Positions 2,488-17,439 of a DNA stretch of 32,000 nt are shown piece by piece (positions within the stretch are counted from its first letter, which is position 1; each line of letters opens with the position of its first letter). The notes beneath the pieces are model-generated. The model worked only from the letters and a program-made list of their open reading frames with translations. It ran no database searches and was not told the DNA's origin. The position numbers were made by a program, and so were the translations under genes. Source of the DNA: Methylorubrum extorquens (GTDB lineage Bacteria; Pseudomonadota; Alphaproteobacteria; Rhizobiales; Beijerinckiaceae); the NCBI GenBank assembly GCA_900234795.1, contig LT962688.1, positions 900,001-932,000 on the forward strand, in the 5' to 3' direction.

Positions 2488-2606
2488 GGTGTCGCGGGTT
2501 GTCGCTAGTCCTCCGGTTACCTCACTTACGCACGCGCGCACGTGCAGTCAGTGCGGTGAACCAGCGACAACCCGCGACAGCCTCGGCCAAACCAATCGCC
2601 AATGGT

Positions 2607-2705
2607 AGAGGGAAAATTGATCATCTGGCGCAGCAGATCGGCGTCGGTGTTCTTTTCCATCAGCCCGCGCTAGGCCAGCTGACCCTGCTCGATGACCGGG
2701 AGGAC
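2607..2705 (-). pseudogene. IS256-family transposase N-terminal stub
   Basis: Minus strand reads ..VIEQGQLA*RGLMEKNTDADLLRQMINF.., which resembles the conserved IS256-family N-terminus (..L.EK..DADLLREMIGF..). It contains an internal stop and no downstream transposase body. Confidence 0.45.
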
Positions 2706-2712
2706 TGATGGT

Positions 2713-3603: not shown

Positions 3604-3820
3604 GGCAACACGGTCCCGGCTTGGCTCTCCTTAGGCCGGCGGCGCCTCTGCCGTGCGGCTGTGCCGGTGAGCTTAACCGGTCCTGCAACAGGCTCACCAG
3701 CGGAATGCCTCGTCCGTCCACAGACATGAGGCCACCGACTGAACTGGCCGCTTACTGGCAACGGACCACGGACGCCATTGATTTCATCGCTGATGCGGAG
3801 AACATCAGGAAGTTCGGCCG

Positions 3821-4057
3821 ATGAACATGAGACCGCACTTCGCCGCCCTACGCAAAGAGGCCCGTCGTCTCCCGCCACAGGGTAACGCCCGAAACGTCGT
3901 TATAGACCGCATCACCCACCTCGAAGGCTGGCTTGAGGAGTTGGGTCGGCTGGACGTGGAGGAAGCACGGACGATCCGCCGCCATACCAGTCGGCTCGAC
4001 CATTACGGCGGGTGCAACAATCAACCTGAGGCGAAGGGTTGTGCCGATGACCAGTAG
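3821..4057 (+). CDS. hypothetical protein (78 aa)
   Basis: ORF only, with moderate third-position GC (about 70% by hand count). It is preceded by a 32-codon ORF (3726-3824) that overlaps it by ATGA. No family recognised. Confidence 0.3.
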   Translation: MNMRPHFAALRKEARRLPPQGNARNVVIDRITHLEGWLEELGRLDVEEARTIRRHTSRLDHYGGCNNQPEAKGCADDQ

Positions 4058-4108
4058 CGCCGCTGGCTTCGCGCTCAAGAACGCGGTGGCGCAGCTCCTG
4101 ACCATCTA

Positions 4109-4331
4109 CTAGGGTCTGTCGTCGCCTGAACGGATTGTCGGTGCTGGCGTTTTCTCGGTTTCAAATGAGGAGACGTGATGCTGTCAGACGCGCAGCGGGG
4201 TGAGTTGGAGCCGTTGATCGAGGCCTGTCGCCCAAAGGCCAAGACACGCTACGAGAAGACCGCCGTCAGCTTCGCCGGTGTCCTCTGCCTCGCCGCAACG
4301 CTCGATTGGCTCAAGTGACAACAGGCCCTAG
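4109..4331 (+). mobile_element. miniature IS5-family derivative (internally deleted IS, MITE-like)
   Basis: Terminal IRs are CTAGGGTCTGTCGTC 4109-4123 and GACAACAGGCCCTAG 4317-4331 (13/15 complementary). The internal 46-codon ORF 4178-4318 (MLSDAQRGELEPLIEACRPKAKT|RYEKTAVSFAGVLCLAATLDWLK) joins the N-terminus typical of IS5/IS4-type (DUF4096) transposases directly to their typical C-terminal tail. Confidence 0.6.
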
Positions 4332-4375
4332 GTCAGAACCCAATCAGCTTCACCGCGTGAACGGCTGCTTAGGGT

Positions 4376-4548
4376 CGAGGCTGTGTGAAAACGTCGAGGC
4401 CATAGAAGGATCTTCCCCTCGCACATCTGTGCAGCGCCGGCATGGCACCCCAACGGCAACTCGGCCGCCAACCATAATGCTCGCATGTCGGCAGCGCAGA
4501 AGATTGTTCTATAGTTTCGGCGCGCGCCTGAGTTTTCACACAGCCTCG
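4376..4548. repeat. MITE-like element bounded by a 17-bp perfect inverted repeat
   Basis: CGAGGCTGTGTGAAAAC 4376-4392 and GTTTTCACACAGCCTCG 4532-4548 enclose 139 bp with no credible ORF. Confidence 0.5.
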
Positions 4549-4743
4549 GTGGGTAGCAGACATTCACTCAAGATGCCGCAACTCGCTGCTCCTCCGCTGA
4601 CAGCAGACCTGTGCCGATCGAAATTCATGAGGCGACTTCTCGCCCGCCTTCTTCGAGGCAGCGTCCCGTTCGATCAAGTCTTTCTGACGTAATCTGGGTT
4701 AACTGTGCCGCTTGCGCCGATTGGCGTCGAAACAGGGGTGGCC

Positions 4744-5100
4744 ATGTCCTCTTCTGTCAAAGCAGGACTGCCCGGACCCGCAGTCCGGCCGGTGGGAACC
4801 GACAGCCCCACCGCGAACGGGAAGCCGCTCCCTGTTGCTCTGAGCCGTCCTGGGGTTGGTCCGGCGGTTTACGCCACCCTTATCGAACTCGGCGCAGATC
4901 CGGACGGCCTCCTTGCTGAGTTGGGGTTTAATCCCAGGCTCTTCGACGGCGGCAAGCTAGTCCCCTATGCCGCCCTCGGCCGCCTGATCACCCTCGAGGC
5001 CGAGCGGACGAATTGCCCTCACCTTGGGCTCCTCGTCGGCCAGCGCGCCACCCTGGCGTCGCTGGGGCCGATCAGCGTGTTGATGCGCCACTCGGACTAA
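4744..5100 (+). pseudogene. AraC-family transcriptional regulator, N-terminal fragment truncated by IS insertion
   Basis: ..VYATLIELGADPDGLLAELGFNPRLFDGGKLVPYAALGRLITLEAERTNCPHLGLLVGQRATLASLGPISVLMRHS resembles the AraC-type ligand-binding region. The reading frame runs into the IS3-type terminal repeat at 5098 and stops at 5098-5100. No HTH domain follows. Confidence 0.6.
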
Positions 5101-5147
5101 CCTGACCGGTATTTTGGACCGAGCCGAGTGAGCGACTGTCTTGCTGG

Positions 5148-6077
5148 TCAAGCGGGTTGCCATGGCGTTCCGTCTCTCAGGATGGCGTTGAGGATGGTGA
5201 TCAGCTTCCGAGCGGTGGCAATCAGGGCAACGAGCTTGGGCTTACCGGCTGCGATGAGCCGGTCGCGGAAGGTTTTCAGCGCGGCATTGTGACGGCTGGC
5301 CACCATGGCCCCCATGAACAGCGCCGTGCGAACAGGTGCGCGGCCGCCTGCAATGAAGCTCCTCCCTCGCCACTGACCGGATTGCCGCGTCCAAGGGGCC
5401 AAGCCGACCAGCGCGGCGACTTGCTTCCGGTTGAGGCTTCCAAGCTCAGGCAGCTCCGCGATCAGGGTTCGTGCGATCGTCGGTCCAACACCAGGAACGG
5501 AGGTCAGGAGGGTCTCCTTCCTGCGCCATTCAAGCGACCGGTCTACCTCTGCATCGATCGAGCGGTCGATCACACTCTGCTCCTGCTCCAACGCCTCTAT
5601 GACGCGCCGGACGCTGTCTCGAATGCACGGTGGAGCTTGGCTCGCTCGCTGCCGCTCGGACGCGATCAGTCCTACGATCTGACGGCGTCTTGTGACGAGA
5701 TCAGCCAAGGCCTGAGTCTCGGCATCGGCCCGAGCGCGAACGGGTGGGTTGGTGGCCGCCGCGAACCGGGCGATCACGGTGGCGTCGATGCGGTCGGTCT
5801 TGGCGCGTTGGCCCAAGGCGTGAGCGAAAGCACGGACCTGTGCTGGGTTCACGATCACGGCTGGTAGCCTCCAGGTGGTGAGAGCACGTGCCACCATGGC
5901 TTCCAAACCGCCGGTTGCCTCCAGGACGACGAGCTTCGGCTTCAGGGGCCGGAGGCGTTCGCACAGCTGCTCCACACCCTCTGTCGTACGGTCAACGGCG
6001 AAGTTCGCTCCAGAGGGATGAACGTGAATATCGAGGCGGTCTCGGGCGACATCGATCCCGACAACAGGAGCGTCCAT
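5148..6077 (-). CDS. IS110-family transposase (DEDD recombinase)
   Basis: MDAPVVGIDVARDRLDIHV.. is the DEDD_Tnp_IS110 N-terminus. ..LLTSVPGVGPTIARTLIAELPELG.. is the Transposase_20 motif. I prefer ATG 6077 (AAGGA Shine-Dalgarno) to the ORF-track start at 6251, whose extra 58 residues are low-complexity. Confidence 0.85.
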   Translation of the reverse strand: MDAPVVGIDVARDRLDIHVHPSGANFAVDRTTEGVEQLCERLRPLKPKLVVLEATGGLEAMVARALTTWRLPAVIVNPAQVRAFAHALGQRAKTDRIDATVIARFAAATNPPVRARADAETQALADLVTRRRQIVGLIASERQRASQAPPCIRDSVRRVIEALEQEQSVIDRSIDAEVDRSLEWRRKETLLTSVPGVGPTIARTLIAELPELGSLNRKQVAALVGLAPWTRQSGQWRGRSFIAGGRAPVRTALFMGAMVASRHNAALKTFRDRLIAAGKPKLVALIATARKLITILNAILRDGTPWQPA

Positions 6078-6257
6078 CTGATCCCATCCTTGCGCAAGCG
6101 GGCTTCGCGTTGAGCGGCCCAAGCGACTGTTCGGGTTCGATGGAACGGCGGGCGAGGACCCTGGCTCACTTGCGGGCTTGGTGGCCCCAGAGGCTAACGG
6201 TCTCTCACCCGCCACCGCGCCGAAGAGCATACCCGGCGAAGGTGGGATCAAGTTACA
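6078..6257 (-). ncRNA. candidate bridge RNA in the IS110 left end
   Basis: About 180 nt, non-coding, 5' of the recombinase, as in IS621-type elements. It contains three segments matching the element junctions (6189-6196, 6165-6170, 6122-6130; see finding). Confidence 0.4.
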
Positions 6258-6263
6258 AGAGGC

Positions 6264-6572
6264 TACTGCATGGCCGCTGCCATGGGTAGCCGGAAGGCCA
6301 GATCAGGGAAGCTGACAGGCGCGGGCGGCCGGTAGCCCAGGGACGAGTGCGGCCGGACGCGGTTGTAGGTGTTCTGCCACAGGGCGATCACGGCTGGGCT
6401 TCCTTGAGCGAGTAGAAGATCTCTTGGCGCAGGCACTCGTCGCGCAGCTCTGCTCGGAGATCTCCGCCTCCTTGCAGGCCAGGGCCAAACTCTTGCCCTG
6501 GGCGGTCTGCACCTCGATCTGGCGCAGCTTCAGCACCACCTGCTCCGCGCTCGTCTTCTGACCTCGCCGCAT
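6264..6572 (-). pseudogene. IS3-family transposase remnant (OrfA N-terminus fused to OrfB C-terminus, multiple frames)
   Basis: MRRGQKTSAEQVVLKLRQIEVQTAQGKSLALACKEAEISEQS is the OrfA HTH. In other frames come ..EIFYSLKEAQ.. and ..VIALWQNTYNRVRPHSSLGYRPPAPVSFPDLAFRLPMAAAMQ* (OrfB C-terminus, stop at 6263-6265). Confidence 0.65.
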
Positions 6573-6638
6573 GTCCGACTCCTTCAGTCCTGGCTGATCC
6601 TCTCAATCAGCCCGGTCCAAAGCCAGCCGGTCAGGTCA

Positions 6639-7086
6639 GTGCTCGACGCCTTCAGCCGCCGGATCGTCGGCTGGGTCATGGCCAGCCACCTGCGCTCGGA
6701 GTTGGTGCTCGACGCTCTGGAGATAGCCGTCACCCAGCGCAGGCCGCGCGACGTCATCCACCACTCCGACCAGAGCTCGCAATACACGTCGCTGGCCTTC
6801 GGCAACCGGTGCCGAGAGGCCGGTGTCCGGCCCTCGACGGGCTCGGTCGGCGATGCCTACGACAACGCCATGGCCGAGAGCTTCTTCTCCACCCCCGAAT
6901 GCGATCTGCTCGTGCGTCGCCGCTTCCGCTCGCAGGCGGAGGCACGGATGGCCTGCTTCAGCTACATCGAAGGCTTCTACAACCCGCCGCGCCGCCACGG
7001 CGCTCGGTTACCGCTCGCCCGTCATTTACGAGCAGGAGACTGCCTCAGAGGCGTCAACAATGAAACTGCTCAGCCAAGTCCCCTGA
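6639..7086 (+). pseudogene. second IS3-family OrfB (rve integrase core) fragment, 5'-truncated and frameshifted
   Basis: VLDAFSRRIVGWVMASHLRSELVLDALEIAVTQRRPRDVIHHSDQSSQYTSLAFGNRCREAGVRPSTGSVGDAYDNAMAESFF.. is the rve core. The C-terminus ..ALGYRSPVIYEQE.. lies in another frame. A probable element end, ..CCGGGGTCAGGCGA, is at 7142-7155. The fragment starts exactly where the first IS3 remnant ends (6638/6639). Confidence 0.65.
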
Positions 7087-7195
7087 CCGTCCACAAAAAC
7101 GGGGCAATCCCAGCTTGTTAACGCATACCGCTTAGCTTCGGCCGGGGTCAGGCGAGGTTCCCGTGATGAGGGACTGACCCGGTGAGGTCTAGTGT

Positions 7196-10100
7196 ATGTA
7201 CTCGTTGCACCCGAACGAGGTGGAGCGCCTGAAGGTGCTGCACGATCTGGAGGTGTTCGGCTCCCCTCCTGAGCCGCAGTACGACGCGATCTGCCGGACC
7301 ACTCAGGCGCTGTTCGGTGTACCTATCGCGCTTGCGTCGTTGGTTGGCGAGACCGAGCAGCGCTTCAAGGGCAGGTGCGGCCTGGAGGCGAGCAGAACTC
7401 CACGCGAGGTCTCGTTCTGCACCCACACCATCCTCTCGGACGAGGTGCTCGTTGTCGAGGATGCCGCTCAGGATGAGCGGTTTTCTGCCAACCCGCTCGT
7501 CACAGGTGAGCCGCACATCCGCTTCTATGCTGGCGCACCGCTCGTCCTCAGTCCTGGCATCCATCTCGGCTCCCTGTGCATCATCGACCGCACCCCGCGC
7601 TCCTTCTCGCCTGAGCAACAGGAGCAGCTTCGCGATCTGGCTCAAACCGTTGTCTCTCAGCTTCGCCTGAGCAAGGCTGAGCAAGCAGCCCGGGCTGGAG
7701 AGGCCTGCCTGCGCGAAAGCGAGGCCAACTATCGCCTCCTCGCGGACAACAGCACCGACCTCATCGTGCGGTGCACTCCAGACGGCACGCGCCTCTACGT
7801 TTCGCCGGCTGCGAAGCGCCTTCTCGGCTACGAACCGGAGGAGCTTGTCGGCACCAAATCCCTCGACTTCGTGCACCCAGAAGATGTGGCCGACTTCGGC
7901 CTGGTGCTGAGCGCAGTGGGTCGAGGCTGTTCCGAGCGAGCCGTCAGCCAGCAGCGTTACCGGCACAAGAACGGCTCTTGGCTGTGGGTGGAGACGTCCT
8001 TCAGCGTCACACGTGATGCGGCAGGCGCTGCGTCCGGCTTCGTCGCTGTGGTGCGCGACATCTCCGAACGGAAGAAGGTTGAGCACGCGATGGCGCATAT
8101 GGCGCGCCACGACCCACTCACCGGCCTGCCGAACCGCCTGCACCTTCGCGAACAGCTTGAGCAGGAGATCGCGCGCACGAAGCGCAAGGGCAGTGGCTTT
8201 GCCCTGTTCTGCCTGGATCTCGATCGCTTCAAACTCGTCAACGACACGCTTGGGCACCAAGCCGGGGACACCTTGCTGAAGGTCGTGGCGCAGCGGATCA
8301 GGGCTCTTCTGCGCACCGAGGACACGGTTGCGCGGCTTGGTGGCGACGAGTTCGTGATCATCCAGACTGGGTGCGCTGGACCTGCGGACGCAACACGGCT
8401 GGCCGAGCGTCTGATCGAGGCGATGGTCTTGCCCATCGATCTCGATGGCTACCCGGCCGGGGTGGGGCTCAGCATCGGCCTCGCCCTCTGCCCACGTGAT
8501 GCAGTCGATGCTGATAAGCTGATTGGTCTGGCGGATCAGGCGCTCTACCGAGCGAAGGCCAGCGGGCGGAACACCTTCCGTTCCCATGCAGAAGGTGAAG
8601 CCACGTCGCGCAGGAACGATCCTGAGCAGTCCGGTGTCTTCCGGAGCCGCGACATCGATCCCATTGGTTCGCACCCCAAGCTCTTTGACGAGGTGCTGTC
8701 CGGCTTGTTGGAGGGCAGCCTGGATTGCGTAAAGCTCCTCGATGAGCACGGCCGGCTGCTGTTCATGAGTTCGGGTGGTCAGAGGCTGATGGAAGTCGAG
8801 AACGCTGGATCGATCCTCGGTCAGTGCTGGCTCGACTTCTGGGAAGGCGAGCACCACGACGTGGCGCAGCAGGCGCTTGAGACAGCCAAGGCCGGTGAGC
8901 CCGCCCGCTTCCGAGGCTTCTGCCCCACGGCCAAGGGACAGCCACGGTGGTGGGACGTGAGCCTGAGCCCCATGCAGGGGCTGAGCGGCTCGCCGCAGCG
9001 CATCCTGTCTGTGTCCCGCGATGCGACCGCACAGGTCGAGCTTGAGGCGAGGCTCAGGACGACAGCCCAGCGCTACGAGGCGCTGATCGAGGCAAGCGCG
9101 ACCATGGTCTGGCGGGCAGAGCCAGACGGCTCTCTCATCGATAGCAGCGGGTGGGAAGCCTACACGGGTCAGCCGGTGAGCGCCTACGCTGGCTTCGGCT
9201 GGCTGAGCACCGTTCACCCCGATGACCAGGAGCGCGTGACCGCCACATGGCGCGAGATCTTCGCCTCGCAGGCAGCAGGCTCCTTCGAGTTCCGTGCCCT
9301 CTGCCGAGACGGATCGTACCGATGGACGCTGACCAGGGCTGTGCCGCTCACGGACGGCTCCGGTCAGGTACGGGAGTGGGTCGGAACCGACAGCGACATC
9401 CACGAGAGCAAACAGGCAACCGAGGCAATTCGCCTTCAGGAAGAACGCTACCGGCTGGCGATGCTCGCCACACAGGATGCGATCTGGGATCACGACCTCA
9501 CATCGGACGCCATCGAGTGGAGCGAGGGAACTTACCGGCTGTTTGGCTACTCTGACGCTGAGGTTGCCAACACGGGCGCTTGGTGGAAGAGCAAGATCCA
9601 CCCTGATGATCGAGCGCGCGTTACGGCCTCCCTTCGTTGCGTCATCGACGGCCATGAGCACCGCTGGAGCGAGGAGTACCTCTTTGAGCAGGGCGACGGC
9701 ACTTACGCGGACGTGCTCGACCGAGGTTTTGTAATCCGGGACTCACACGGTCGAGCCGTGCGCGTGGTCGGTGCTATGCACGATGTCACCGAGGAGCGGC
9801 GAGCGGATGCAGCGCTGCGGGCCAGTGAAGAGCGCCTGCGGCTTGCCTTGCGAGCGGGCCGGATGGTCGCTTGGGAACTCAACCTCAAGACGGGCCAGAG
9901 CAAACAATCTGGAGATGCCTTGGACCTTCTAGGCATTGCCTCAGGGCCGGCGTCAGAGTTCTACGACCGCGTTCATCCCGATGACCGCGCAGGGATGGAC
10001 CGCTTCATTCAAGGAGCGGAGAGCCACCAGGGCCAAGAATTCCGTTACGTCCACCCGGCAGGCAGCACGTTATGGCTGAGCGCGTGGGCTGAGCGGACCG

Positions 10101-11503
10101 AGGGGGACCGGCTCGTCGGCATCACCTTCGACATCACCGAACGCAAGCGCGTTGAAGAACGAGCATGGCGCGCAGCCAATCACGACGCGCTCACGGGTTT
10201 GCCGAACCGCCGGCTGTTCCACCAGCGACTGGAGCAGGCGCTGACTGCCGCAGAGCGGGGCGGTACGAGTGTGAGCCTGCTTCTCTTAGACCTCGACAAC
10301 CTGCGGGACGTGAACGACACGCTCGGGCACGACGCAGGTGACGCTGTACTGGTAGAGGTTGCCCAGCGCTTGCAGGACGGCTTGCGTGAGACCGACACAG
10401 TGGCGCGCCTAAGTGGTGACGAGTTCGCCTTACTGCTCGTTGAGCCGCTGCGCCTAGAGCACGCATTGAGCCACACACGAGGGCTCATAGAGCGGCTGAG
10501 CCAGCCGTTCTGCAACCGTGGCCACACGCTCTCGCGCAAGGCGAGCATCGGTGTTGCTGCCTATCCCGATCACCACCGCGGCCCGCACGACCTGCTGAAA
10601 GACGCTGACATCGCGCTCTATCGCGCAAAGGTGCAGGGCCGGAACCGCGCCATTGTTTTCGCGCCAGAGATGCGGGCAGAGACCGAGCGGCGGGTGAGCA
10701 TCGCGAGCGAGGTTCGGGTGGCTCTCGCTGCGGGGCGGATCGTGCCCTACTACCAGCCGAAGGTGTGCTTCTCAACCGGCGCAATCGTCGGCTTTGAGGC
10801 ACTGGCACGCTGGGAGCATCCTGAGAAGGGATTGCTCACCCCCGGCTACTTCGGCTCGGCCTTCGACGATCCGGAGCTTGCCACAGGCATCGGCGACAGC
10901 ATCCTCCGGCAGGTTGCGGCGGACCTGCGGGAGTGGCGGGAACGTGGCCTTACTCCCGGCCTCATTGCGGTGAACTTCGCCTCGGCGGAGTTCCGCAAGC
11001 CGGATTTGGCCGGCAGCATCCTGTCCGTGCTGAACGAGCACGGCGTTCCACCGAGCCTGTTCGAGGTCGAGGTCACCGAGACCGTCTTCCTCGGCCACGG
11101 CAGCGAGAACGTGCCAGCGACCCTTCACCGGCTACGCGCTGCCGGCGTTCTGATCACGCTCGATGACTTCGGCACCGGCTTCGCATCGCTGACGCACCTG
11201 AAGCAGTTCCCGGTCGGCCACCTGAAGGTGGACCAGAGCTTCGTGCGCAACATGGAGCAGGACAGCGACGACGCGGCCATTGTCGCGGCGGTCGTCGGCC
11301 TTGGCCGCAGCATTGGCGTGAAGGTCACGGCTGAAGGTGTCGAGACTGAGGGTCAGGCACAGCGACTCAGCGCTATGGGCTGCGACTACGCCCAGGGCTA
11401 CCGCTACGCCACGCCCATGGCCGGCTCACGCGTGCCCTGGTTCCTGACGCATTGGAGGACGGCTGCGGTGGTCGAGGAGAGCCAGATGCTGCGCCTTGCA
11501 TGA
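7196..11503 (+). CDS. multidomain c-di-GMP signalling protein: GAF-PAS-GGDEF-PAS(x4)-GGDEF-EAL
   Basis: N-terminal GAF domain (..FCTHTILSDEVLVVEDAAQDERFSANPLV..FYAGAPL..). First GGDEF is RTEDTVARLGGDEF (about 8336-8353), with an RxxD I-site. Several PAS/PAC units follow. Second GGDEF is degenerate, RETDTVARLSGDEF (10412-10426). EAL motifs are EALARW (10796-), DDFGTGFAS, KVDQSF and EGVET. Confidence 0.9.
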   Translation: MYSLHPNEVERLKVLHDLEVFGSPPEPQYDAICRTTQALFGVPIALASLVGETEQRFKGRCGLEASRTPREVSFCTHTILSDEVLVVEDAAQDERFSANPLVTGEPHIRFYAGAPLVLSPGIHLGSLCIIDRTPRSFSPEQQEQLRDLAQTVVSQLRLSKAEQAARAGEACLRESEANYRLLADNSTDLIVRCTPDGTRLYVSPAAKRLLGYEPEELVGTKSLDFVHPEDVADFGLVLSAVGRGCSERAVSQQRYRHKNGSWLWVETSFSVTRDAAGAASGFVAVVRDISERKKVEHAMAHMARHDPLTGLPNRLHLREQLEQEIARTKRKGSGFALFCLDLDRFKLVNDTLGHQAGDTLLKVVAQRIRALLRTEDTVARLGGDEFVIIQTGCAGPADATRLAERLIEAMVLPIDLDGYPAGVGLSIGLALCPRDAVDADKLIGLADQALYRAKASGRNTFRSHAEGEATSRRNDPEQSGVFRSRDIDPIGSHPKLFDEVLSGLLEGSLDCVKLLDEHGRLLFMSSGGQRLMEVENAGSILGQCWLDFWEGEHHDVAQQALETAKAGEPARFRGFCPTAKGQPRWWDVSLSPMQGLSGSPQRILSVSRDATAQVELEARLRTTAQRYEALIEASATMVWRAEPDGSLIDSSGWEAYTGQPVSAYAGFGWLSTVHPDDQERVTATWREIFASQAAGSFEFRALCRDGSYRWTLTRAVPLTDGSGQVREWVGTDSDIHESKQATEAIRLQEERYRLAMLATQDAIWDHDLTSDAIEWSEGTYRLFGYSDAEVANTGAWWKSKIHPDDRARVTASLRCVIDGHEHRWSEEYLFEQGDGTYADVLDRGFVIRDSHGRAVRVVGAMHDVTEERRADAALRASEERLRLALRAGRMVAWELNLKTGQSKQSGDALDLLGIASGPASEFYDRVHPDDRAGMDRFIQGAESHQGQEFRYVHPAGSTLWLSAWAERTEGDRLVGITFDITERKRVEERAWRAANHDALTGLPNRRLFHQRLEQALTAAERGGTSVSLLLLDLDNLRDVNDTLGHDAGDAVLVEVAQRLQDGLRETDTVARLSGDEFALLLVEPLRLEHALSHTRGLIERLSQPFCNRGHTLSRKASIGVAAYPDHHRGPHDLLKDADIALYRAKVQGRNRAIVFAPEMRAETERRVSIASEVRVALAAGRIVPYYQPKVCFSTGAIVGFEALARWEHPEKGLLTPGYFGSAFDDPELATGIGDSILRQVAADLREWRERGLTPGLIAVNFASAEFRKPDLAGSILSVLNEHGVPPSLFEVEVTETVFLGHGSENVPATLHRLRAAGVLITLDDFGTGFASLTHLKQFPVGHLKVDQSFVRNMEQDSDDAAIVAAVVGLGRSIGVKVTAEGVETEGQAQRLSAMGCDYAQGYRYATPMAGSRVPWFLTHWRTAAVVEESQMLRLA

Positions 11504-11685
11504 CGAGCGGTGTTTCAGCGAGGCTCCCGCTTCGTCAGCGTGCACGACCTCAGCGGCAGGCGCATGCTAGTGCAGCCGTACGTGGCTGAGCTGGAGCAAG
11601 CAGCGTGATCTTGGTCGCCGCGGTGGGTGGTGGGCTGTGCGTCCGCTTCGTGCATCGAAGTTGAGGACTGCTTCCGACCGATTTC

Positions 11686-11926
11686 GTTCTCTAATGAGTC
11701 AATGGGCGGCAGCTCAATCCAGAGCGTTCGACGCTTTCGGGTGCCTGCGTTCTCTACGTGCTCGTGCGGCACTTGATGGGGTCAGCTGGGTGCAAAGCGG
11801 CTCGGTTGAAAGCGCAGTCGGCGCAAGGCCGCATGCTACAGAATCGGCGCCATCTTCTGCTCCCTCCCTCGGGCGTCGCTCCCGCTCGGGAGCTCGGTTC
11901 GGCCTCCTGTCCGGTGATGTCAGCCG
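11686..11926 (-). ncRNA. candidate bridge/seek RNA in the IS1111-type right end, copy L
   Basis: Mirror copy of 15607-15847, differing at one base (11864). Confidence 0.4.
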
Positions 11927-12940
11927 CTACGCAGGTCGGAACTCGGTGCCCTGCCGCAGCATCGCGTGCATGATGATCGCTAGCCGGCGCGCGAGAGCGA
12001 TGCGGGCCTTGCGCATCGTAGAGCGCTTCGCGATGGCCAGAGCCCAAGCCTTCAGCTTCAGGGGCTGCCTGCAGCGCGTCAGCATCACGTTGGCGGCTTC
12101 GTACAGCAGCGTTCTGACCCGCCGGTCGCCGCACTTCGAGATGCTACCGGTGTAGTCGACCTCGCCCGATTGGTAGCGTCGCGGAACAAGGCCAAGATAC
12201 GGACCGACGTCGCGGGAGCGCCTGAAGCGCTCAGGATCATCGACGGCTGCCGTGAAAGCGAGCGCGGTGAGTTGACCGACGCCCGGGATCGTCATCAACC
12301 GCCGGCAGGCATCTGAGGCTCGGACCATCCGCTTGATATCTGCATCGATGGCGGCGACAGCTGCCAGCACGGCAGCTCGTGCTCCGATCAGGCCGCGCAT
12401 GGCGGCGGACAGTCCAGCGATCCCCTCGCTCGAACGCAGAGCCTGCTCGATGAACGCAGGGCTGAGCGCCCGCGGTAGCCGCACCCCGAACACGACGGCA
12501 AGACCGCGGATCTGGTTCTCCAGCGTGACCCGCTGGCCGACCAGCTTCTTGCGCGCGATGATCAACGACCTCACGGCGTGTGCCGGCAGCGACTTCACGT
12601 GCACCGGCTTGAAGAAGCCTGTTCGTGCCAGATGAGCCAGACCGCGCGCATCGTTCCGGTCGGTCTTGTGCGTCGTAAGCGACTTCAAGGCTTGGTAAGC
12701 CTGCCGGCTCTCGACGCAGACGACCGGCACACCATGGTCGGCCAAGCCGTGGAACAGCATTGGAGCCATCCGGCCTGTCTCGAACACAACCCGACGGCAG
12801 GCAGGCGCCTTCGCGAGTTCCTGCGCGATGTCGGCAGGCGTAGAGGCCACCTTCGCCTGATGGGTAACTACTCCGTCGCGGTCGACCACGCAGACGTGCG
12901 TCTCCTCCATCGAGACATCTAGGCCAGCGAAATACTCCAT
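11927..12940 (-). CDS. IS110-family transposase (337 aa)
   Basis: MEYFAGLDVSMEETHVCVVDRDG.. is the DEDD N-terminal domain. ..LMTIPGVGQLTALAFTAAVDDPERF.. is the Transposase_20 motif. The Shine-Dalgarno is GGAAGAGGAGG. The protein is identical to the one encoded at 14593-15606. Confidence 0.92.
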   Translation of the reverse strand: MEYFAGLDVSMEETHVCVVDRDGVVTHQAKVASTPADIAQELAKAPACRRVVFETGRMAPMLFHGLADHGVPVVCVESRQAYQALKSLTTHKTDRNDARGLAHLARTGFFKPVHVKSLPAHAVRSLIIARKKLVGQRVTLENQIRGLAVVFGVRLPRALSPAFIEQALRSSEGIAGLSAAMRGLIGARAAVLAAVAAIDADIKRMVRASDACRRLMTIPGVGQLTALAFTAAVDDPERFRRSRDVGPYLGLVPRRYQSGEVDYTGSISKCGDRRVRTLLYEAANVMLTRCRQPLKLKAWALAIAKRSTMRKARIALARRLAIIMHAMLRQGTEFRPA

Positions 12941-13093
12941 AATCAGCCTCCTCTTCCGGCAGCGGAGCCGATCCTATCGACTTCCGCAGAAGAGCTGCCG
13001 CCCATTACCCGATGTTGAAAAACTCGGTGGCGGCCGAGATCGGCGACGGACAGGGGCGATCTCTTCCCTTCGGCCCTGAGGCCTCCTTCCCGA

Positions 13094-14467
13094 TCAAGCC
13101 GGGCTCGGCTGCGGGACCGGGATGATCTTGGCCATCTTCCTCAGGTTCTGAGCGGCTGCGGCGAGGTGGAACTCGTCTCTCGCTCCGTTTGGGCCGCGCA
13201 ACCGGAGGCGATCCAGCTTCAGGATGCGCTTGAGGTGGGCAAACAGCATCTCGATCTTCTTCCGCTCACGGCGTGAGGTTTTGCCTTCCTCAGATCGTGC
13301 GATGTCGCGGGCCATGTCTCGCGCGCCCTCGTGGACTGAGCGCGGGACTTTGCGCACCGGATCGTTCGGGCAGCACCGCGCCTTCAGCGGGCATGGCGTG
13401 CAGTCGAACTTGCTCGCGCGATACATCAGCGTCGCCCCGTCGTTGATCAAGGTGCCGGTGGTCGTCAGCATCCGGCCTGCCGGGCAGCGATAGACGTCAT
13501 TGGGCTGGTCGTAGGTGAAGTCGGCGCGTGAGAAGGTACCATCGGTGCGGGTCGATTTATCGAAGACGCTGATATGTGGCTCGATGCCCTGCTCGTAGAC
13601 GAGCCAGCCCAACATCTCGGCCGAGCCGTAGCCGCTGTCGCCCGCCAGCCGGGCCGGATAGAGATCGAAGCGCTCGCGTGAGCGCTCGATCATGCGTTTG
13701 GCTGCCGTGACCTCGGCCTGCCGGATGGCGGTGGTCGCCTCGACATCGACGATGACCGCGTGGTCGAGGTCGATCAGGTAGTTGGCCGTGTAGGCGAAGA
13801 ACGCTTGCCCGCCGTGTGCTCCGGTCCAGCGTGCGGCCGGATCCGCGGGCGAGATGAACTTGGGTGGGACGGGCGTGGCGGCCCCGAAGGCGGCCTCGTC
13901 GAGGACGGCCAGATACTCTTGAGCAGCCCGGCTCACGGCCTCGGGTGGGAGGCCGGCAGAGCCTTCGACCCCGTTCTGTCGGTTGGCGTCGGCCTTGATC
14001 AGGCTGCCATCGACGGCAAAGCCCTCACCACCGACCAGCCCTTCGGCGATGCAGCGGGCGAGCACACGCTCGAACAAGCGGCGTAGCAGATCGCTGTCGC
14101 GGAAACGGCCGTGACGGTTCTTCGAGAAGGTCGAGTGGTCCGGTACGCGCCCCTCCAGGCCCAGGCGGCAGAACCAACGGTAGGCGAGATTGAGGTGGAC
14201 CTCGTCGCAGAGCCGGCGCTCCGAGCGGATGCCGAGGCAGTAGCCGATGATCAGCATACGGATCATCAGCTCGGGATCGACCGAGGGGCGCCCCGTGGAG
14301 GCGTAGAACGGGGCCAACTCCTGGCGCAGGCCGGTGAGATCGACGAAGCGGTCGATAGAGCGCAGTAGATGGTCGGCGGGAACGTGGGTGCCGAGCGAGA
14401 ACTCGTAGAACAGAGCACCCTGCTCGACTTGCCGAGGTCCCATCATCTGCGTCGATCCCTGCCTCAC
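13094..14467 (-). CDS. IS1182-family (IS5/IS4-like DDE) transposase
   Basis: N-terminal InsH/DUF772-like region: ..GRPSVDPELMIRMLIIGYCLGIRSERRLCDEVHLNLAYRWFC... C-terminal tail: ..MLFAHLKRILKLDRLRLRGPNGARDEFHLAAAAQNLRKMAK. An alternative start is MMGPRQ at 14446. Confidence 0.85.
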   Translation of the reverse strand: MRQGSTQMMGPRQVEQGALFYEFSLGTHVPADHLLRSIDRFVDLTGLRQELAPFYASTGRPSVDPELMIRMLIIGYCLGIRSERRLCDEVHLNLAYRWFCRLGLEGRVPDHSTFSKNRHGRFRDSDLLRRLFERVLARCIAEGLVGGEGFAVDGSLIKADANRQNGVEGSAGLPPEAVSRAAQEYLAVLDEAAFGAATPVPPKFISPADPAARWTGAHGGQAFFAYTANYLIDLDHAVIVDVEATTAIRQAEVTAAKRMIERSRERFDLYPARLAGDSGYGSAEMLGWLVYEQGIEPHISVFDKSTRTDGTFSRADFTYDQPNDVYRCPAGRMLTTTGTLINDGATLMYRASKFDCTPCPLKARCCPNDPVRKVPRSVHEGARDMARDIARSEEGKTSRRERKKIEMLFAHLKRILKLDRLRLRGPNGARDEFHLAAAAQNLRKMAKIIPVPQPSPA

Positions 14468-14592
14468 AGCAGCAGTGAATCACCTCGCAAATGCTGCTGC
14501 AACAGCCGAGTTTTTCAACATCGGGTAATGGGCGGCAGCTCTTCTGCGGAAGTCGATAGGATCGGCTCCGCTGCCGGAAGAGGAGGCTGATT

Positions 14593-15606
14593 ATGGAGTA
14601 TTTCGCTGGCCTAGATGTCTCGATGGAGGAGACGCACGTCTGCGTGGTCGACCGCGACGGAGTAGTTACCCATCAGGCGAAGGTGGCCTCTACGCCTGCC
14701 GACATCGCGCAGGAACTCGCGAAGGCGCCTGCCTGCCGTCGGGTTGTGTTCGAGACAGGCCGGATGGCTCCAATGCTGTTCCACGGCTTGGCCGACCATG
14801 GTGTGCCGGTCGTCTGCGTCGAGAGCCGGCAGGCTTACCAAGCCTTGAAGTCGCTTACGACGCACAAGACCGACCGGAACGATGCGCGCGGTCTGGCTCA
14901 TCTGGCACGAACAGGCTTCTTCAAGCCGGTGCACGTGAAGTCGCTGCCGGCACACGCCGTGAGGTCGTTGATCATCGCGCGCAAGAAGCTGGTCGGCCAG
15001 CGGGTCACGCTGGAGAACCAGATCCGCGGTCTTGCCGTCGTGTTCGGGGTGCGGCTACCGCGGGCGCTCAGCCCTGCGTTCATCGAGCAGGCTCTGCGTT
15101 CGAGCGAGGGGATCGCTGGACTGTCCGCCGCCATGCGCGGCCTGATCGGAGCACGAGCTGCCGTGCTGGCAGCTGTCGCCGCCATCGATGCAGATATCAA
15201 GCGGATGGTCCGAGCCTCAGATGCCTGCCGGCGGTTGATGACGATCCCGGGCGTCGGTCAACTCACCGCGCTCGCTTTCACGGCAGCCGTCGATGATCCT
15301 GAGCGCTTCAGGCGCTCCCGCGACGTCGGTCCGTATCTTGGCCTTGTTCCGCGACGCTACCAATCGGGCGAGGTCGACTACACCGGTAGCATCTCGAAGT
15401 GCGGCGACCGGCGGGTCAGAACGCTGCTGTACGAAGCCGCCAACGTGATGCTGACGCGCTGCAGGCAGCCCCTGAAGCTGAAGGCTTGGGCTCTGGCCAT
15501 CGCGAAGCGCTCTACGATGCGCAAGGCCCGCATCGCTCTCGCGCGCCGGCTAGCGATCATCATGCACGCGATGCTGCGGCAGGGCACCGAGTTCCGACCT
15601 GCGTAG
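14593..15606 (+). CDS. IS110-family transposase (337 aa)
   Basis: Protein identical to the one encoded at 11927-12940. Confidence 0.92.
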   Translation: MEYFAGLDVSMEETHVCVVDRDGVVTHQAKVASTPADIAQELAKAPACRRVVFETGRMAPMLFHGLADHGVPVVCVESRQAYQALKSLTTHKTDRNDARGLAHLARTGFFKPVHVKSLPAHAVRSLIIARKKLVGQRVTLENQIRGLAVVFGVRLPRALSPAFIEQALRSSEGIAGLSAAMRGLIGARAAVLAAVAAIDADIKRMVRASDACRRLMTIPGVGQLTALAFTAAVDDPERFRRSRDVGPYLGLVPRRYQSGEVDYTGSISKCGDRRVRTLLYEAANVMLTRCRQPLKLKAWALAIAKRSTMRKARIALARRLAIIMHAMLRQGTEFRPA

Positions 15607-15847
15607 CGGCTGACATCACCGGACAGGAGGCCGAACCGAGCTCCCGAGCGGGAGCGACGCCCGAGGGAAGGAGCAGAAGATGGCGCCGATTCTGTAGCAT
15701 GCGGCCTTGCGCCGACTGCGCTTTCAACCGAGCCGCTTTGCACCCAGCTGACCCCATCAAGTGCCGCACGAGCACGTAGAGAACGCAGGCACCCGAAAGC
15801 GTCGAACGCTCTGGATTGAGCTGCCGCCCATTGACTCATTAGAGAAC
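15607..15847 (+). ncRNA. candidate bridge/seek RNA in the IS1111-type right end, copy R
   Basis: A 241-nt non-coding region 3' of the recombinase. It contains a GCTCCC-GAGC-GGGAGC hairpin near 15641-15656. Segments 15687-15695, 15722-15728, 15777-15784 and 15791-15796 match the element junctions (see finding). Confidence 0.45.
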
Positions 15848-16263
15848 AGAATCGACCCTTAGCAGACCCTGGCGAGGTCCGCTTTCGGGCTGTTGATGAG
15901 CCAGAGACCTGTCGCTGGAACGGGTGGCTTTGAGCCCGTCTGCGGTTGTGTGCGGCATAGGTCAACCAACCCAGATAAATATCAATATACTTATGCATGT
16001 TACTTTCTAGTATTGGCCCAATAAGAATGATGTCCGCGTTAGGCCAGTATTCATTGCCTGAAAAATATGCAATTTGGCAAGAAACAATCAGCCTCAGACG
16101 AAGTTGAGGCTTTAGGATGCATGCCTCTGCCTATTTGACGCACCCTTGTGGAAGCGTGAAGCATCCTAGATGCAAGCTTAGCCTTCAAGGTCGCGGAGTA
16201 TCTAAGAAAAGTAGATTCTAAGCTTGCTGATTGACCTCCGCACTTAGCTGGTGGGAGAAATCG

Positions 16264-17439
16264 ATGCGCGCTTTAGTCTGGCACGGGAAAGAAGACATCC
16301 GCTGCGATACCGTCACCGATCCAGAGATCGAAGACGGGCGCGACGTCATTGTCAAAGTCACAAGCTGCGCGATCTGCGGCTCGGACCTGCACCTGTTTCA
16401 CAACTTGATCCCCGCCATGCTCCCCGGCGACGTCATGGGTCACGAGACCATGGGCGAAATCGTCGAGACCGGGCGCGGGCTTAACGGCAAGCTGAAGAAG
16501 GGCGACCGGGTCGTCGTACCCTTCACCATCGTCTGCGGTGAGTGCGACCAGTGCAAGCGCGGCTACTTCTCCGTCTGTCAGAAAAGCAACCGCAAGAAAT
16601 ACCTCGCTGATAAGGTCTTCGGACACGGCACCGCCGGTCTGTTCGGGTACTCGCATCTCACCGGCGGCTACCCCGGCGGTCAGGCCGAGTACCTGCGCGT
16701 GCCGTTTGCCGATGCGACCGCCCAGAAGGTGCCTGACGGCATTCCCGACGAAAAGCTGCTCTTCCTCTCGGACATCTTCCCGACCGGTTGGCAGGCGGCT
16801 GTCCAGGCCGACATCCAGCCCACCGATACCGTCGCGATCTGGGGGTGCGGACCGGTCGGCCAGATGACGATCCGCTCGGCCGTCCTCCTGGGTGCCGAAC
16901 AGGTCGTTGCCATCGACCACCTGCCGGAACGGCTGGAGATGGCCGAGGCAGGGGGCGCCATCACCATCAACTTCGACGAAGAGAGCGTCGTCGAGCGCCT
17001 GAACGAGCTGACCGGTGGCGAAGGTCCCGAGAAGTGCATCGACTGCATCGGCATGGAAAGCCATGTCAGCCCCACCATGCCCGATACGATCTACGACCGG
17101 GCCAAGCAGATCTTCCTGGCGGAGAGCGACCGTCCGCACGTGCTGCGTGAGATGATCTATGTCTGCCGGCCTGGCGGCCTGATCTCGATCCCAGGAGTCT
17201 ATGGCGGTTTGTCCGACAAGATCCCGATGGGTGCGGCGATGAACAAGGGCCTGACCTTCCGCATGGGGCAGACCCACGTCCAGCGCTGGACCGCCGATCT
17301 TCTTCGCCGGATTGAGGAGGACCAGATCGACCCCTCCTTCGTCATCACCCACGAGGCCCCGCTCGACATGGGCCCCGAGATGTACCGGACGTTCCGGGAC
17401 AAGCAGGACAGCTGCATCAAGGTCGTTCTCAAACCCTGA
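16264..17439 (+). CDS. zinc-dependent alcohol dehydrogenase family protein (glutathione-independent formaldehyde dehydrogenase-like)
   Basis: MRALVWHGKEDIRCDTV..CAICGSDLH..GHETMGEIVE..CGECDQCKRG..GGQAEYLRVPFAD..WGCGPVG.. The Shine-Dalgarno is GGGAGA. ATG 16264 is preferred to the TTG at 16231. Confidence 0.88.
   Translation: MRALVWHGKEDIRCDTVTDPEIEDGRDVIVKVTSCAICGSDLHLFHNLIPAMLPGDVMGHETMGEIVETGRGLNGKLKKGDRVVVPFTIVCGECDQCKRGYFSVCQKSNRKKYLADKVFGHGTAGLFGYSHLTGGYPGGQAEYLRVPFADATAQKVPDGIPDEKLLFLSDIFPTGWQAAVQADIQPTDTVAIWGCGPVGQMTIRSAVLLGAEQVVAIDHLPERLEMAEAGGAITINFDEESVVERLNELTGGEGPEKCIDCIGMESHVSPTMPDTIYDRAKQIFLAESDRPHVLREMIYVCRPGGLISIPGVYGGLSDKIPMGAAMNKGLTFRMGQTHVQRWTADLLRRIEEDQIDPSFVITHEAPLDMGPEMYRTFRDKQDSCIKVVLKP

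What the first reader, a model, noticed from the sequence alone, without database searches (positions are those of the whole stretch)
11665..15868. Mirror-image IS1111-type insertions in both terminal inverted repeats of an IS1182-family element
Two 1342-bp segments (11686-13027 reversed; 14506-15847 forward) are identical except at one base. Each encodes the same 337-aa IS110-family transposase. The 1478 bp between them encode an IS1182-family transposase but have no terminal IRs of their own. If the IS110-type ends are placed at 13013 and 14520, the sequences on either side of each copy reconstitute a 35-nt imperfect IR pair. The right one is CCGAGTTTTTCAAC+AGAATCGACCCTTAGCAGACC. The left one, read as reverse complement, is CCGAGTTTTTCAAC+GAAATCGGTCGGAAGCAGTCC. 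They are 27/35 identical, and the host IS becomes 1548 bp once both insertions are removed. The same position, 21 nt from each tip, was therefore hit in the same relative orientation in both IRs. IS1111-subgroup members IS4321/IS5075 are known to target the terminal IRs of Tn21-family transposons. Including the IS110 element at 5133-6257, all three IS110-family copies in this window sit inside the terminal IRs of other ISs, a hyperparasitic lifestyle that should disable the host IS.
Basis: partly seen in the sequence, partly recalled or inferred. Interest (0 to 1): 0.7.

Follow-up and report, generated by a model that had tools for sequence, protein, structure and literature searches.

The report
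Guided IS110 insertions in both host-IS ends
Two near-identical copies of a small RNA-guided jumping gene (94% identical in protein to the catalogued ISMdi14) sit, as mirror images, at the same spot in both end-repeats of another jumping gene. This is a clear new example of a behaviour already known for this family.

Summary
Segments 11686-13027 (reversed) and 14506-15847 are identical except at one base. Each contains a 1328-bp IS110-family element of the IS1111 group, whose transposase is 94% identical to ISfinder's ISMdi14. The 1506 bp between them are the interior of an IS1182-family element (72% aa to ISMno9).

Uninterrupted relatives on Methylobacterium plasmids read GAGTTTTTCAAC directly followed by AGAATCG at one end and GAAATCC at the other.

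All 10 other retrieved copies of this element, and about 50 relatives across Alphaproteobacteria, sit in the same motif and orientation. About 80% of those relatives lie at an end of an IS1182-like element or of a ~200-bp miniature element. Four miniature elements carry the same mirror-image double insertion.

The 3' non-coding region encodes a candidate seekRNA/bridge RNA. Its two guide segments match both sides of the target, and one co-varies with the flank across relatives.

Independent short-read contigs from at least 20 runs reproduce both junctions, so this is not an assembly artefact.

The behaviour is already known (IS1383 in IS1384 repeats; IS4321/IS5075 in Tn21-family repeats). It is a new member of a known kind, of modest interest.

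The parts
11665..11685 (.). Outer 21 nt (tip) of the host IS1182-family element's terminal repeat on the tnp-stop side, displaced by the left insertion
   Evidence: Its reverse complement GAAATCGGTCGGAAGCAGTCC aligns with the GAAATCC... ends of uninterrupted relatives L001-L003.
11686..13013 (-). Left copy of the 1328-bp IS110-family (IS1111-group, ISMdi14-like) element
   Evidence: Mirror of 14520-15847 with one mismatch at 11864. The same 1328-bp unit occurs in 10 other genomic places.
11927..12940 (-). Transposase gene of the left copy (337 aa)
   Evidence: ORF list. The sequence is identical to the right copy over the CDS.
13014..14519 (-). Interior of the host IS1182-family element (1506 bp), including the inner 14 nt of each terminal repeat (13014-13027 and 14506-14519)
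   Evidence: 76-85% nt identity to uninterrupted Methylobacterium plasmid elements whose interiors are 1505-1536 bp.
13094..14446 (-). Host IS1182-family transposase gene (450 aa from MMGPRQ; the open frame extends to 14467)
   Evidence: NF033551 426.9 bits; DUF772 + DDE_Tnp_1 + DDE_Tnp_1_6. 72% aa identity to the ISMno9 transposase over its full length.
14520..15847 (+). Right copy of the 1328-bp IS110-family (IS1111-group, ISMdi14-like) element
   Evidence: The left end ATCGGGTAATGG and right end TTAGAGAAC are conserved in about 50 relatives.
14593..15606 (+). Transposase gene of the right copy (337 aa, DEDD type)
   Evidence: PF01548 + PF02371 and NF033542. 94% aa identity to ISfinder ISMdi14.
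14527..14541 (+). Left subterminal inverted repeat AATGGGCGGCAGCTC, 7 nt from the left end (left-copy equivalent 12992-13006)
   Evidence: Perfect 15-nt inverted repeat with 15818-15832 (pairs I22/I23).
15818..15832 (+). Right subterminal inverted repeat GAGCTGCCGCCCATT, 15 nt from the right end (left-copy equivalent 11701-11715)
   Evidence: pairs I22/I23.
15685..15695 (+). Candidate seekRNA/bridge-RNA target guide on the 5' side, GCCGATTCTGT. It is complementary to the top strand of the core AC plus the right flank AGAATCGGC (left-copy equivalent 11838-11848).
   Evidence: Coordinates. It matches the right flank at 8/9 positions here and 9/9 in L007 and L040. Co-variation with flanks across 45 unique relatives: 287/405 matches against 263.6 +/- 5.2 in permutations, p <= 1e-4.
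15721..15728 (+). Candidate target guide on the 3' side, CTTTCAAC. It is identical to the top strand of the left flank TTTCAAC, so it would pair with the bottom strand (left-copy equivalent 11805-11812).
   Evidence: In L053 the guide reads TTTGCAAC and its left flank reads TTTTGCAAC.
15670..15745 (+). Predicted target-binding loop domain: closing stem (15670-15684 with 15729-15745), the two guides, and a central hairpin (15696-15720)
   Evidence: RNAalifold on 47 unique relatives. The closing stem shows compensatory changes (alignment pairs 99:188 GC/AU, 100:187 CG/UA, 101:185 AU/GC).
15750..15784 (+). Predicted donor-binding domain: GACCCCATCAAG (15750-15761), a hairpin, and GTAGAGAAC (15776-15784, which equals the element's right end TAGAGAAC). 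Left-copy equivalents 11772-11783 and 11749-11757.
   Evidence: The left-end match is imperfect (about 6-7 of 9) and shows no co-variation, so this part is tentative.
15848..15868 (.). Outer 21 nt (tip) of the host element's terminal repeat on the tnp-start side, AGAATCGACCCTTAGCAGACC, displaced by the right insertion
   Evidence: It aligns with AGAATCG...GCAGACC at the ends of uninterrupted relatives.

Best explanation
An IS1182-family insertion sequence (ISMno9-like, about 1548 bp, with 35-nt imperfect terminal repeats) was hit twice, independently, by the same IS110-family element of the IS1111 group (ISMdi14-like, 1328 bp).

That element recognises the sequence TTTCAAC^A(N)AATCGG(C), about 21 nt in from each tip of the host's terminal repeats. 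Recognition is most likely through a seekRNA/bridge RNA transcribed from its 241-nt 3' non-coding region. One guide segment pairs with the top strand to the right of the AC core, and a second pairs with the bottom strand to the left of it.

The two host repeats are inverted copies of one sequence, and the element inserts in only one orientation relative to its target. Occupying both repeats therefore necessarily gives the mirror-image structure, with both transposase genes reading outward.

Shown: the anatomy, the uninterrupted target, the constancy of site and orientation, and the guide-to-target complementarity with co-variation.

Inferred: that the RNA is made and used; that insertion proceeds through a circular intermediate; and that splitting each repeat into 21 outer + 14 inner nt immobilises the host IS. 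The last could be reversible if excision is precise.

The confidence of 0.88 applies to the structural reading (two targeted insertions into the two host repeats). The RNA-guided step taken alone is about 0.75.
For: Anatomy and protein families.

Uninterrupted targets: relatives L001-L003 read GAGTTTTTCAAC directly followed by AGAATCG or GAAATCC, with the same left/right asymmetry as the reconstituted ends here, and have interiors of 1505-1536 bp against 1506 bp.

Same element elsewhere: 10 places in other genomes, always 1328 bp and always flanked by (G)AGTTTT(T)CAAC | RRAATCG.

Relatives: about 50 (71-97% aa, many alphaproteobacterial genera, plus Bosea plasmids) have the same flanks and orientation. 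Of 52 loci scored, one of which lies at a contig end, 21 have an IS1182-like tnp adjacent (16 on the tnp-start side, 5 on the tnp-stop side). Another 20 have the inverted partner motif 117-318 nt away, which indicates a miniature element.

Mirror-image double insertions around ~200-bp miniature elements: L015, L017, L027, L079.

RNA: guide segments lie in a conserved internal loop whose closing stem shows compensatory changes. Guide-to-flank co-variation has p <= 1e-4. The top-strand complement lies 5' of the bottom-strand match and the two overlap at the insertion point, as reported for IS1111-family seekRNAs (PMC11187229).

Independent assemblies: short-read contigs L097-L099 (one seen in 20 or more runs) carry the exact host core with the IS110 left end at both ends, mirrored.
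Against: - No RNA or transposition data exist for this element.
- Rfam has no matching family.
- The single-sequence fold of the non-coding region is no more stable than shuffled sequence (z = +1.48).
- The proposed donor guide for the left end is imperfect and does not co-vary with left-end variants ATC/ATG/ATT-GGG.
- Co-variation for the target guide is modest in size (71% against 65% matches), and the relatives are not phylogenetically independent.
- The left copy sits in GAAATCG, which mismatches the guide at two positions next to the core, so recognition tolerates mismatches.
- 11 of 52 relatives have no recognisable host element within 1.8 kb.
- Loss of host-IS mobility is untested.
Confidence: 0.88

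Rival explanations
1. There was one primary insertion only, or one in each of two different host-IS copies. The doubly occupied element then arose by homologous recombination within the host core, or by an inverted duplication, rather than by two insertions into a single host copy.
For: The two copies differ at only 1 of 1328 bases, so they are very recent or have been homogenised. Single-end occupancy of either host repeat exists in other genomes (L090 and L092).
Against: The outer 21-nt tips differ (13/21) in just the way the two repeats of uninterrupted relatives differ (AGAATCG against GAAATCC). Each junction is therefore an authentic insertion into a different repeat, and a simple inverted duplication of one junction is excluded. 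Recombination between two singly occupied copies cannot be excluded, but it still requires two insertion events. Double occupancy recurs in four unrelated miniature elements.
Confidence: 0.06
2. The 14 nt CCGAGTTTTTCAAC belong to the IS110-type element, and the central 1478 bp are merely cargo or a fragment without repeats of its own.
For: Every copy and relative of the IS110-type element is preceded by (G)A(G/C)TTTTTCAAC whatever lies further upstream.
Against: Elements with no IS110 insertion carry the motif fused directly to AGAATCG/GAAATCC at both ends. The motif occurs only on the left of the IS110 element and never at its right end. It varies between sites (GAC/GAG, TTTGTCAAC, TTCTTCAAC, TTTTGCAAC) while the adjacent element end is conserved. 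The internal guide CTTTCAAC explains its constancy.
Confidence: 0.01
3. The inverted structure is an assembly artefact, a mis-join across a multi-copy repeat.
For: The IS110-type element is multi-copy, and such repeats commonly break or mis-join assemblies.
Against: Independent Logan assemblies from 20 or more sequencing runs give contigs of 1533-1538 bp. These consist of the exact host core with the IS110 left end running outward at both ends, and one 2839-bp contig continues through the transposase gene. The two copies differ at one base. The same architecture is seen in four other genomes.
Confidence: 0.02
4. The 4.2-kb unit functions as a composite mobile element, with the two IS110-type copies mobilising the IS1182 transposase gene as cargo. 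Alternatively, the host transposase still uses the outer 21-nt tips and carries both IS110 copies along.
For: The IS110-family element ISPpu9 is reported to generate various circular intermediates enabling modular transposition (PMC12288879, listed). The outer tips of the host repeats are retained.
Against: No second copy of the 4.2-kb unit was found. The exact host transposase occurs only in 4 short contigs. The two copies are inverted, so recombination between their ends would invert rather than excise the segment between them. DDE transposases normally need contiguous terminal repeats (general knowledge).
Confidence: 0.03

Closest known systems
IS1383 (IS110 family) inserting into the inverted repeats of IS1384 (IS5 family), Pseudomonas putida H (Muller, Lauf & Herrmann 2001, Mol Genet Genomics 265:1004; cited as ref. 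13 in PMC11208160)
   Same: An IS110-family element whose specific target is the terminal inverted repeat of another DDE-type insertion sequence. From memory, and not checked because the paper is not held, IS1384 is flanked by IS1383 copies.
   Different: Different bacteria and different element pairs (IS5-family host against IS1182-family host). No sequence relationship was tested. The RNA guide was unknown at that time.
IS4321 / IS5075 (IS1111 group) in the 38-bp terminal repeats of Tn21-family transposons (Partridge & Hall 2003, J Bacteriol 185:6371)
   Same: IS1111-group elements with subterminal inverted repeats that insert at one position and in one orientation in a transposon's terminal repeats. 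Left and right copies (IS4321L/IS4321R, names seen) occupy both ends of one transposon; that last detail is from memory.
   Different: The host there is a Tn3-family transposon, not an IS. Target sequence and guide differ. The right terminal extension there is 3 bp, against 15 bp here.
ISMdi14 (ISfinder, Methylobacterium extorquens DM4)
   Same: The transposase is 94% identical over all 337 residues, so this is the same lineage of element.
   Different: It falls just under the 95% aa identity that ISfinder uses for isoforms (rule quoted from memory). The DNA and recorded target of ISMdi14 were not available to compare.
ISMno9 (IS1182 family, Methylobacterium nodulans pMNOD02)
   Same: The host transposase is 72% identical over its full length. 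Terminal motifs are the same (GAGTTTTTCAAC-AGAATCG / -GAAATCC) and the size is similar.
   Different: ISMno9 is uninterrupted. At 72% aa and 76% nt identity, the window's element is a distinct IS of the same subgroup.
seekRNA of ISEc11/ISPa11/ISKpn4 (PMC11187229) and bridge RNA of IS621 (PMC11208160)
   Same: [quoted passage not shown] In IS1111-type elements it lies 3' of tnp, with the top-strand complement first. Both features are seen here.
   Different: It is predicted only. There is no Rfam or covariance-model match, and donor recognition is unclear.

Membership tests
IS110 family, IS1111 group | DEDD-type transposase (DEDD_Tnp_IS110 N-terminal domain plus Transposase_20 C-terminal domain) | tested here: met
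   PF01548 (E = 2.8e-20) and PF02371 (E = 2.1e-25). NF033542 scores 253.7 bits against a cut-off of 140.
IS110 family, IS1111 group | Subterminal inverted repeats (7-17 bp per PMC11208160; usually 11-13 bp per PMC11187229) | tested here: met
   Perfect 15-bp repeat at 14527-14541 and 15818-15832.
IS110 family, IS1111 group | Long non-coding region downstream of tnp (right end longer than left end) | tested here: met
   The right non-coding end is 241 nt (15607-15847) and the left is 73 nt (14520-14592).
IS110 family, IS1111 group | Terminal extensions beyond the subterminal repeats of 7 (or 6) bp on the left and 3 bp on the right (PMC11187229) | tested here: inconclusive
   The left extension is 7 bp (ATCGGGT), which fits. 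The right is 15 bp (GACTCATTAGAGAAC), which does not. The right end contains a second short copy of the repeat (CATTA; CCCATTA in relatives) 6 nt from the tip. The paper describes this as the usual pattern, not a rule.
IS110 family, IS1111 group | One specific target, one orientation, no target-site duplication | tested here: met
   All 10 identical copies and about 50 relatives lie in TTTCAAC|RNWATCG in the same orientation. Only the shared AAC(A) occurs at both junctions.
IS110 family, IS1111 group | seekRNA with the top-strand complement 5' of the bottom-strand match, overlapping at the insertion point | tested here: met
   In sequence only: GCCGATTCTGT (15685-15695), then CTTTCAAC (15721-15728), overlapping on AC. 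RNA expression and binding are not testable here.
ISMdi14 isoform (ISfinder) | At least 95% aa (or at least 90% nt) identity to the reference element (rule quoted from memory) | tested here: not met
   316/337 = 94% aa. Nucleotide identity was not tested because the reference DNA is not held.
IS1182 family (host element) | IS1182-type DDE transposase | tested here: met
   NF033551 scores 426.9 bits against a cut-off of 270, with DUF772, DDE_Tnp_1 and DDE_Tnp_1_6. 72% aa identity to ISMno9.
IS1182 family (host element) | Terminal inverted repeats at both ends | tested here: met
   The reconstituted 35-nt repeats match at 27/35 and are homologous to the ends of uninterrupted relatives.
IS1182 family (host element) | Direct target duplication flanking the element | tested here: inconclusive
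   No direct repeat is evident next to 11665 or 15868. The exact tips are known only to within about 1-2 nt, and no empty site was available.
Bridge RNA, IS621 type | Two internal loops, one for target and one for donor, each with two guides that cover the core | tested here: inconclusive
   The target loop is well supported. In the donor loop, the right-end guide AGAGAAC matches, while the left-end guide ACCCCAT matches ATCGGGT imperfectly and shows no co-variation. PMC11208160 notes that donor-binding bases in IS1111 members often lie in a multi-loop.

The most novel reading that the evidence does not exclude
The ISMdi14 lineage may be an old, specialised parasite of IS1182-family elements and their miniature derivatives throughout the Alphaproteobacteria. 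On this reading its RNA guide tracks sequence variants of the host repeats, and occupation of one or both repeats acts as a switch that silences the host element. The switch would be reversible if excision is precise. If so, IS-on-IS parasitism would be a long-term co-evolving relationship that shapes IS1182 activity, not an occasional accident.
Probability: 0.4. Interest if true: 0.5.

Novelty: new member of a known kind. Interest (0 to 1): 0.3.

Why it matters
This is a clean natural example of RNA-guided site choice by an IS1111-group element. The target is the terminal repeat of another IS, the uninterrupted target is available for comparison, and about 50 relatives allow guide and target to be compared. 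That makes it a useful case for annotating nested ISs correctly in Methylobacterium and related genomes, where the host IS is otherwise called repeat-less or a pseudogene. It also adds a natural guide/target pair to the bridge-RNA/seekRNA catalogue. It does not reveal a new mechanism or a new kind of element.

Tried and rejected
- Rfam at gathering thresholds on the whole window, and at E <= 1 on 14480-15900, gave no match. No curated family covers this RNA.
- The single-sequence fold of the 3' non-coding region was uninformative (z = +1.48). Only the alignment-based fold gave a usable structure.
- I first took CACCCGA (about 15790) for the left-end donor guide. The alignment fold places it in a conserved stem, so I dropped it in favour of GACCCCATCAAG, which remains tentative.
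- Partridge & Hall 2003 (PMC219399) and Muller et al. 2001 are not held in the library. Details of those precedents rest on titles cited elsewhere and on memory.
- A search for another unoccupied target in the window found only a chance-level 3-mismatch hit at 24129-24147.
- A search for an uninterrupted copy of this exact host transposase found only doubly occupied short contigs.
- The supplements of the seekRNA and bridge-RNA papers gave the ISMdi14 protein sequence but no recorded target for it.
Full report
**1. Observation.**
The repeat finder reports inverted arms 11665-13027 and 14506-15868 (1363 nt, 99%), separated by 1478 nt. A base-by-base comparison shows that 11686-13027, read in reverse, equals 14506-15847 except at 11864/15669. 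The next 21 nt outward match at 13/21, and beyond that there is no similarity.

Each arm carries a 337-aa ORF with the two Pfam domains of IS110-family transposases. It also matches NCBIfam NF033542 'IS110 family RNA-guided transposase' at 253.7 bits, against a cut-off of 140. The central ORF 13094-14467 (minus strand) is an IS1182-family transposase: NF033551 at 426.9 bits, cut-off 270. All numbers in the finding are correct.

**2. Are the 14 nt part of the host repeat or of the IS110-type element?**
The central segment has uninterrupted relatives on Methylobacterium plasmids:
- NC_011892, 85% nt identity;
- NC_010514, 80%;
- NC_011887, 76%, annotated as an ISMno9-family IS1182-like element.

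Their ends read ...GAGTTTTTCAAC-AGAATCG(G)... on the side of the transposase start. Read as reverse complement, the other end reads ...GAGTTTT(T/G)CAAC-GAAATCC....

The interiors between the two motifs measure 1505, 1515 and 1536 bp in the relatives and 1506 bp here, so nothing is missing from the host. The host transposase is 72% identical to ISMno9's over its whole length. The tips (...GCAGACC) lie about 21 nt outside the insertion point in all of them.

**3. The inserted element.**
It is 1328 bp long (14520-15847; mirror 11686-13013). It has:
- a 73-nt left non-coding end;
- a 241-nt right non-coding end;
- perfect 15-bp subterminal inverted repeats, 7 nt from the left tip and 15 nt from the right tip.

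These are IS1111-group features as defined in PMC11187229 and PMC11208160. The exception is the longer right extension, which contains a second short copy of the repeat 6 nt from the tip.

Its transposase is 94% identical (316/337) to ISMdi14 of ISfinder. That sequence is printed in a supplement of PMC11187229.

The junction is ambiguous by 3-4 nt, because target (CAAC|A) and element ends (GAAC|A) share AAC(A). By analogy with other family members, AC is the likely core.

**4. Target specificity across copies and relatives.**
The exact transposase occurs in many public assemblies. In all 10 places retrieved, the element is 1328 bp and is flanked by (G)AGTTTT(T)CAAC on the left and (A/G)(A/G)AATCG on the right. 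The surrounding genes differ between places.

A scan of one genome per species returned 80 loci. About 50 relatives at 71-97% aa identity have the same flanks and orientation. They come from Methylobacterium, Ancylobacter, Sinorhizobium, Microvirga, Mesorhizobium, Sphingomonas, Roseobacter/Paracoccaceae and many MAGs, and three Bosea plasmid copies add to them.

Of 52 loci scored, one of which lies at a contig end:
- 16 have an IS1182-like transposase gene abutting the left end by its start;
- 5 have one abutting by its stop, so both host repeats are used;
- 20 have the inverted partner motif GTTGAAAAAC 117-318 nt upstream, which indicates a miniature derivative;
- 11 have no recognisable host within 1.8 kb.

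L015, L017, L027 and L079 show two copies, mirror-image, around a ~200-bp miniature element. Double occupancy is therefore recurrent.

The uninterrupted hosts show instead that it is the target. The motif also varies slightly between sites, while the adjacent element end does not.

**5. How the site is probably chosen.**
In an alignment of the 3' non-coding regions, two conserved segments flank a hairpin inside an internal loop:
- GCCGATTCTGT (15685-15695), the reverse complement of AC+AGAATCGGC, that is, the core plus the right flank;
- CTTTCAAC (15721-15728), identical to the left flank up to the core.

RNAalifold on 47 unique sequences closes this loop with a stem that shows compensatory changes, GC/AU, CG/UA and AU/GC.

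The first segment varies among relatives, and the variants tend to match their own right flanks:

| Guide variant | Own right flank | Locus |
|---|---|---|
| GATTTTGT | AAAATCGGC, 9/9 | L040 |
| GTGGATTTTGT | AAAATCCGC | L029 |
| GTGGATTCTGT | ..ATCCAC | L081 |
| GCCAATTCTG | AAAATTGGC | L022 |
| GTGTATTCTGT | AGAATA.. | L047, L052 |

Over 45 unique guide/flank pairs, 287 of 405 positions match, against 263.6 +/- 5.2 when flanks are permuted (p <= 1e-4). Relatedness of the sequences inflates this somewhat. L053 has TTTGCAAC in the second segment and TTTTGCAAC as its left flank.

The order (top-strand complement first) and the overlap at the insertion point are those reported for IS1111-family seekRNAs.

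A second domain (15750-15784) contains GTAGAGAAC, which equals the right end. It also contains GACCCCATCAAG, which is partly complementary to the left end. It looks like a donor-binding region, but the left-end match is imperfect and does not co-vary, so I treat it as tentative.

Rfam has no matching family, and the single-sequence fold is uninformative.

**6. Artefact and alternatives.**
The exact host transposase is found in only four short-read contigs. Three were retrieved:
- two of 1533 and 1538 bp, one of them seen in 20 or more runs, consist of the host core with the left end of the IS110-type element running outward at both ends;
- one of 2839 bp continues through the IS110-type transposase gene.

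Both mirrored junctions therefore exist in independent data. An inverted duplication of one junction is excluded, because the two outer tips differ exactly as the two repeats of uninterrupted relatives do. Recombination between two singly occupied host copies cannot be excluded, but it still needs two insertions.

**7. Consequence for the host IS.**
Each 35-nt repeat is split into 21 outer and 14 inner nucleotides, 1328 bp apart. The host transposase frame is intact. Loss of mobility is a reasonable inference from how DDE transposases use their ends, but it was not tested. No uninterrupted copy of this exact host IS was found.

**8. The third IS110-family element (5133-6257).**
It is 97-98% identical to ISMex17 copies on Methylorubrum plasmids. 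Its long non-coding end lies upstream of the gene, so it belongs to the IS110 group and not to IS1111.

Its left flank (5100-5132, ACCTGACCGGTATTTTGGACCGAGCCGAGTG) and right flank (6258 onward, AGGCTACTGCATGG...) are contiguous in an uninterrupted IS3-family element on pNMS14P2: TGACCTGACCGGTATTTTGGACCGAGCCGAGTGGGAGGCTACTGCATGG.

**9. Comparison with what is known.**
IS110-family elements that target the terminal repeats of other mobile elements are established:
- IS1383 in the repeats of IS1384 (title cited in PMC11208160; families confirmed);
- IS4321/IS5075 in Tn21-family repeats (cited).

The RNA-guided basis was published in 2024. The element here is a near-isoform of a catalogued IS, and its host is a relative of a catalogued IS.

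What is new is the specific pairing (ISMdi14 lineage with ISMno9-like IS1182 repeats and miniature elements), its breadth across Alphaproteobacteria, and the in-silico guide assignment. I found no paper that reports this pairing, but ISfinder and the target catalogue of PMC11187229 could not be consulted.

**10. Verdict.**
This is a new member of a known kind, of modest interest (0.3).

Noticed in passing
window 5133-6257 (flanks 5098-5132 and 6258-6300); L100, L101: An ISMex17-like IS110-group element (97-98% nt identity to Methylorubrum plasmid copies) is inserted about 35 nt from the tip of an IS3-family element. The same flanks recur in M. extorquens AM1 and M. populi, and an uninterrupted IS3 end (L100) shows the joined site. 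The tip here reads TAACCTGACC instead of TGACCTGACC.
   Followed up: partly
window 15669 (right copy) versus 11864 (left copy): The only difference between the two copies lies in the predicted closing stem of the target-binding loop. The right copy has A where the left copy and 44 of 47 relatives have G paired with C (alignment pair 95:192). The right copy's RNA may therefore be slightly impaired.
   Followed up: partly
window 4357-4567: A 211-bp miniature-element-like unit has 36-nt inverted repeats (78%). Their sequence (GGCTGCTTAGGGTCGAGGCTGTGTGAAAAC) resembles the host IS repeat (GGTCTGCTAAGGGTCGATTCTGTTGAAAAAC). At the position equivalent to the target it reads GTTTTCACAC-AGCCTCG, which does not match the guides, and it is unoccupied.
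   Followed up: partly
L015, L017, L027, L079 (about 1640-4260 in each): Mirror-image pairs of ISMdi14-like elements flank ~200-bp non-coding elements whose ends carry the same GAGTTTTTCAAC motif. About 20 further relatives sit at one end of such small elements.
   Followed up: partly
L069-L086 (e.g. L086 1759-2757 and 3001-4005): A second clade (41-47% aa identity) has ends ...GCGATTAGACAAC and GGTAATCGCGG and different flanks, so presumably a different target. L086 also shows a head-to-head pair about 240 nt apart.
   Followed up: no
window 6303-7121: There are fragments of IS3-family genes in opposite orientations: an orfA-like ORF at 6303-6572 (minus strand) and the C-terminal part of an integrase-like ORF at 6636-7121 (plus strand). 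An IS3-type repeat lies at 6606-6640. Together they form a mosaic of nested or truncated ISs next to the ISMex17-like element.
   Followed up: no
window 15940-16100: A short AT-rich patch (about 160 nt) lies immediately outside the host IS tip in an otherwise GC-rich window, upstream of a zinc alcohol-dehydrogenase-like gene (16231-17439).
   Followed up: no
window 7196-11503: A 1435-aa GAF / multi-PAS / GGDEF / EAL signalling protein ends about 160 nt before the host IS tip and appears intact.
   Followed up: no
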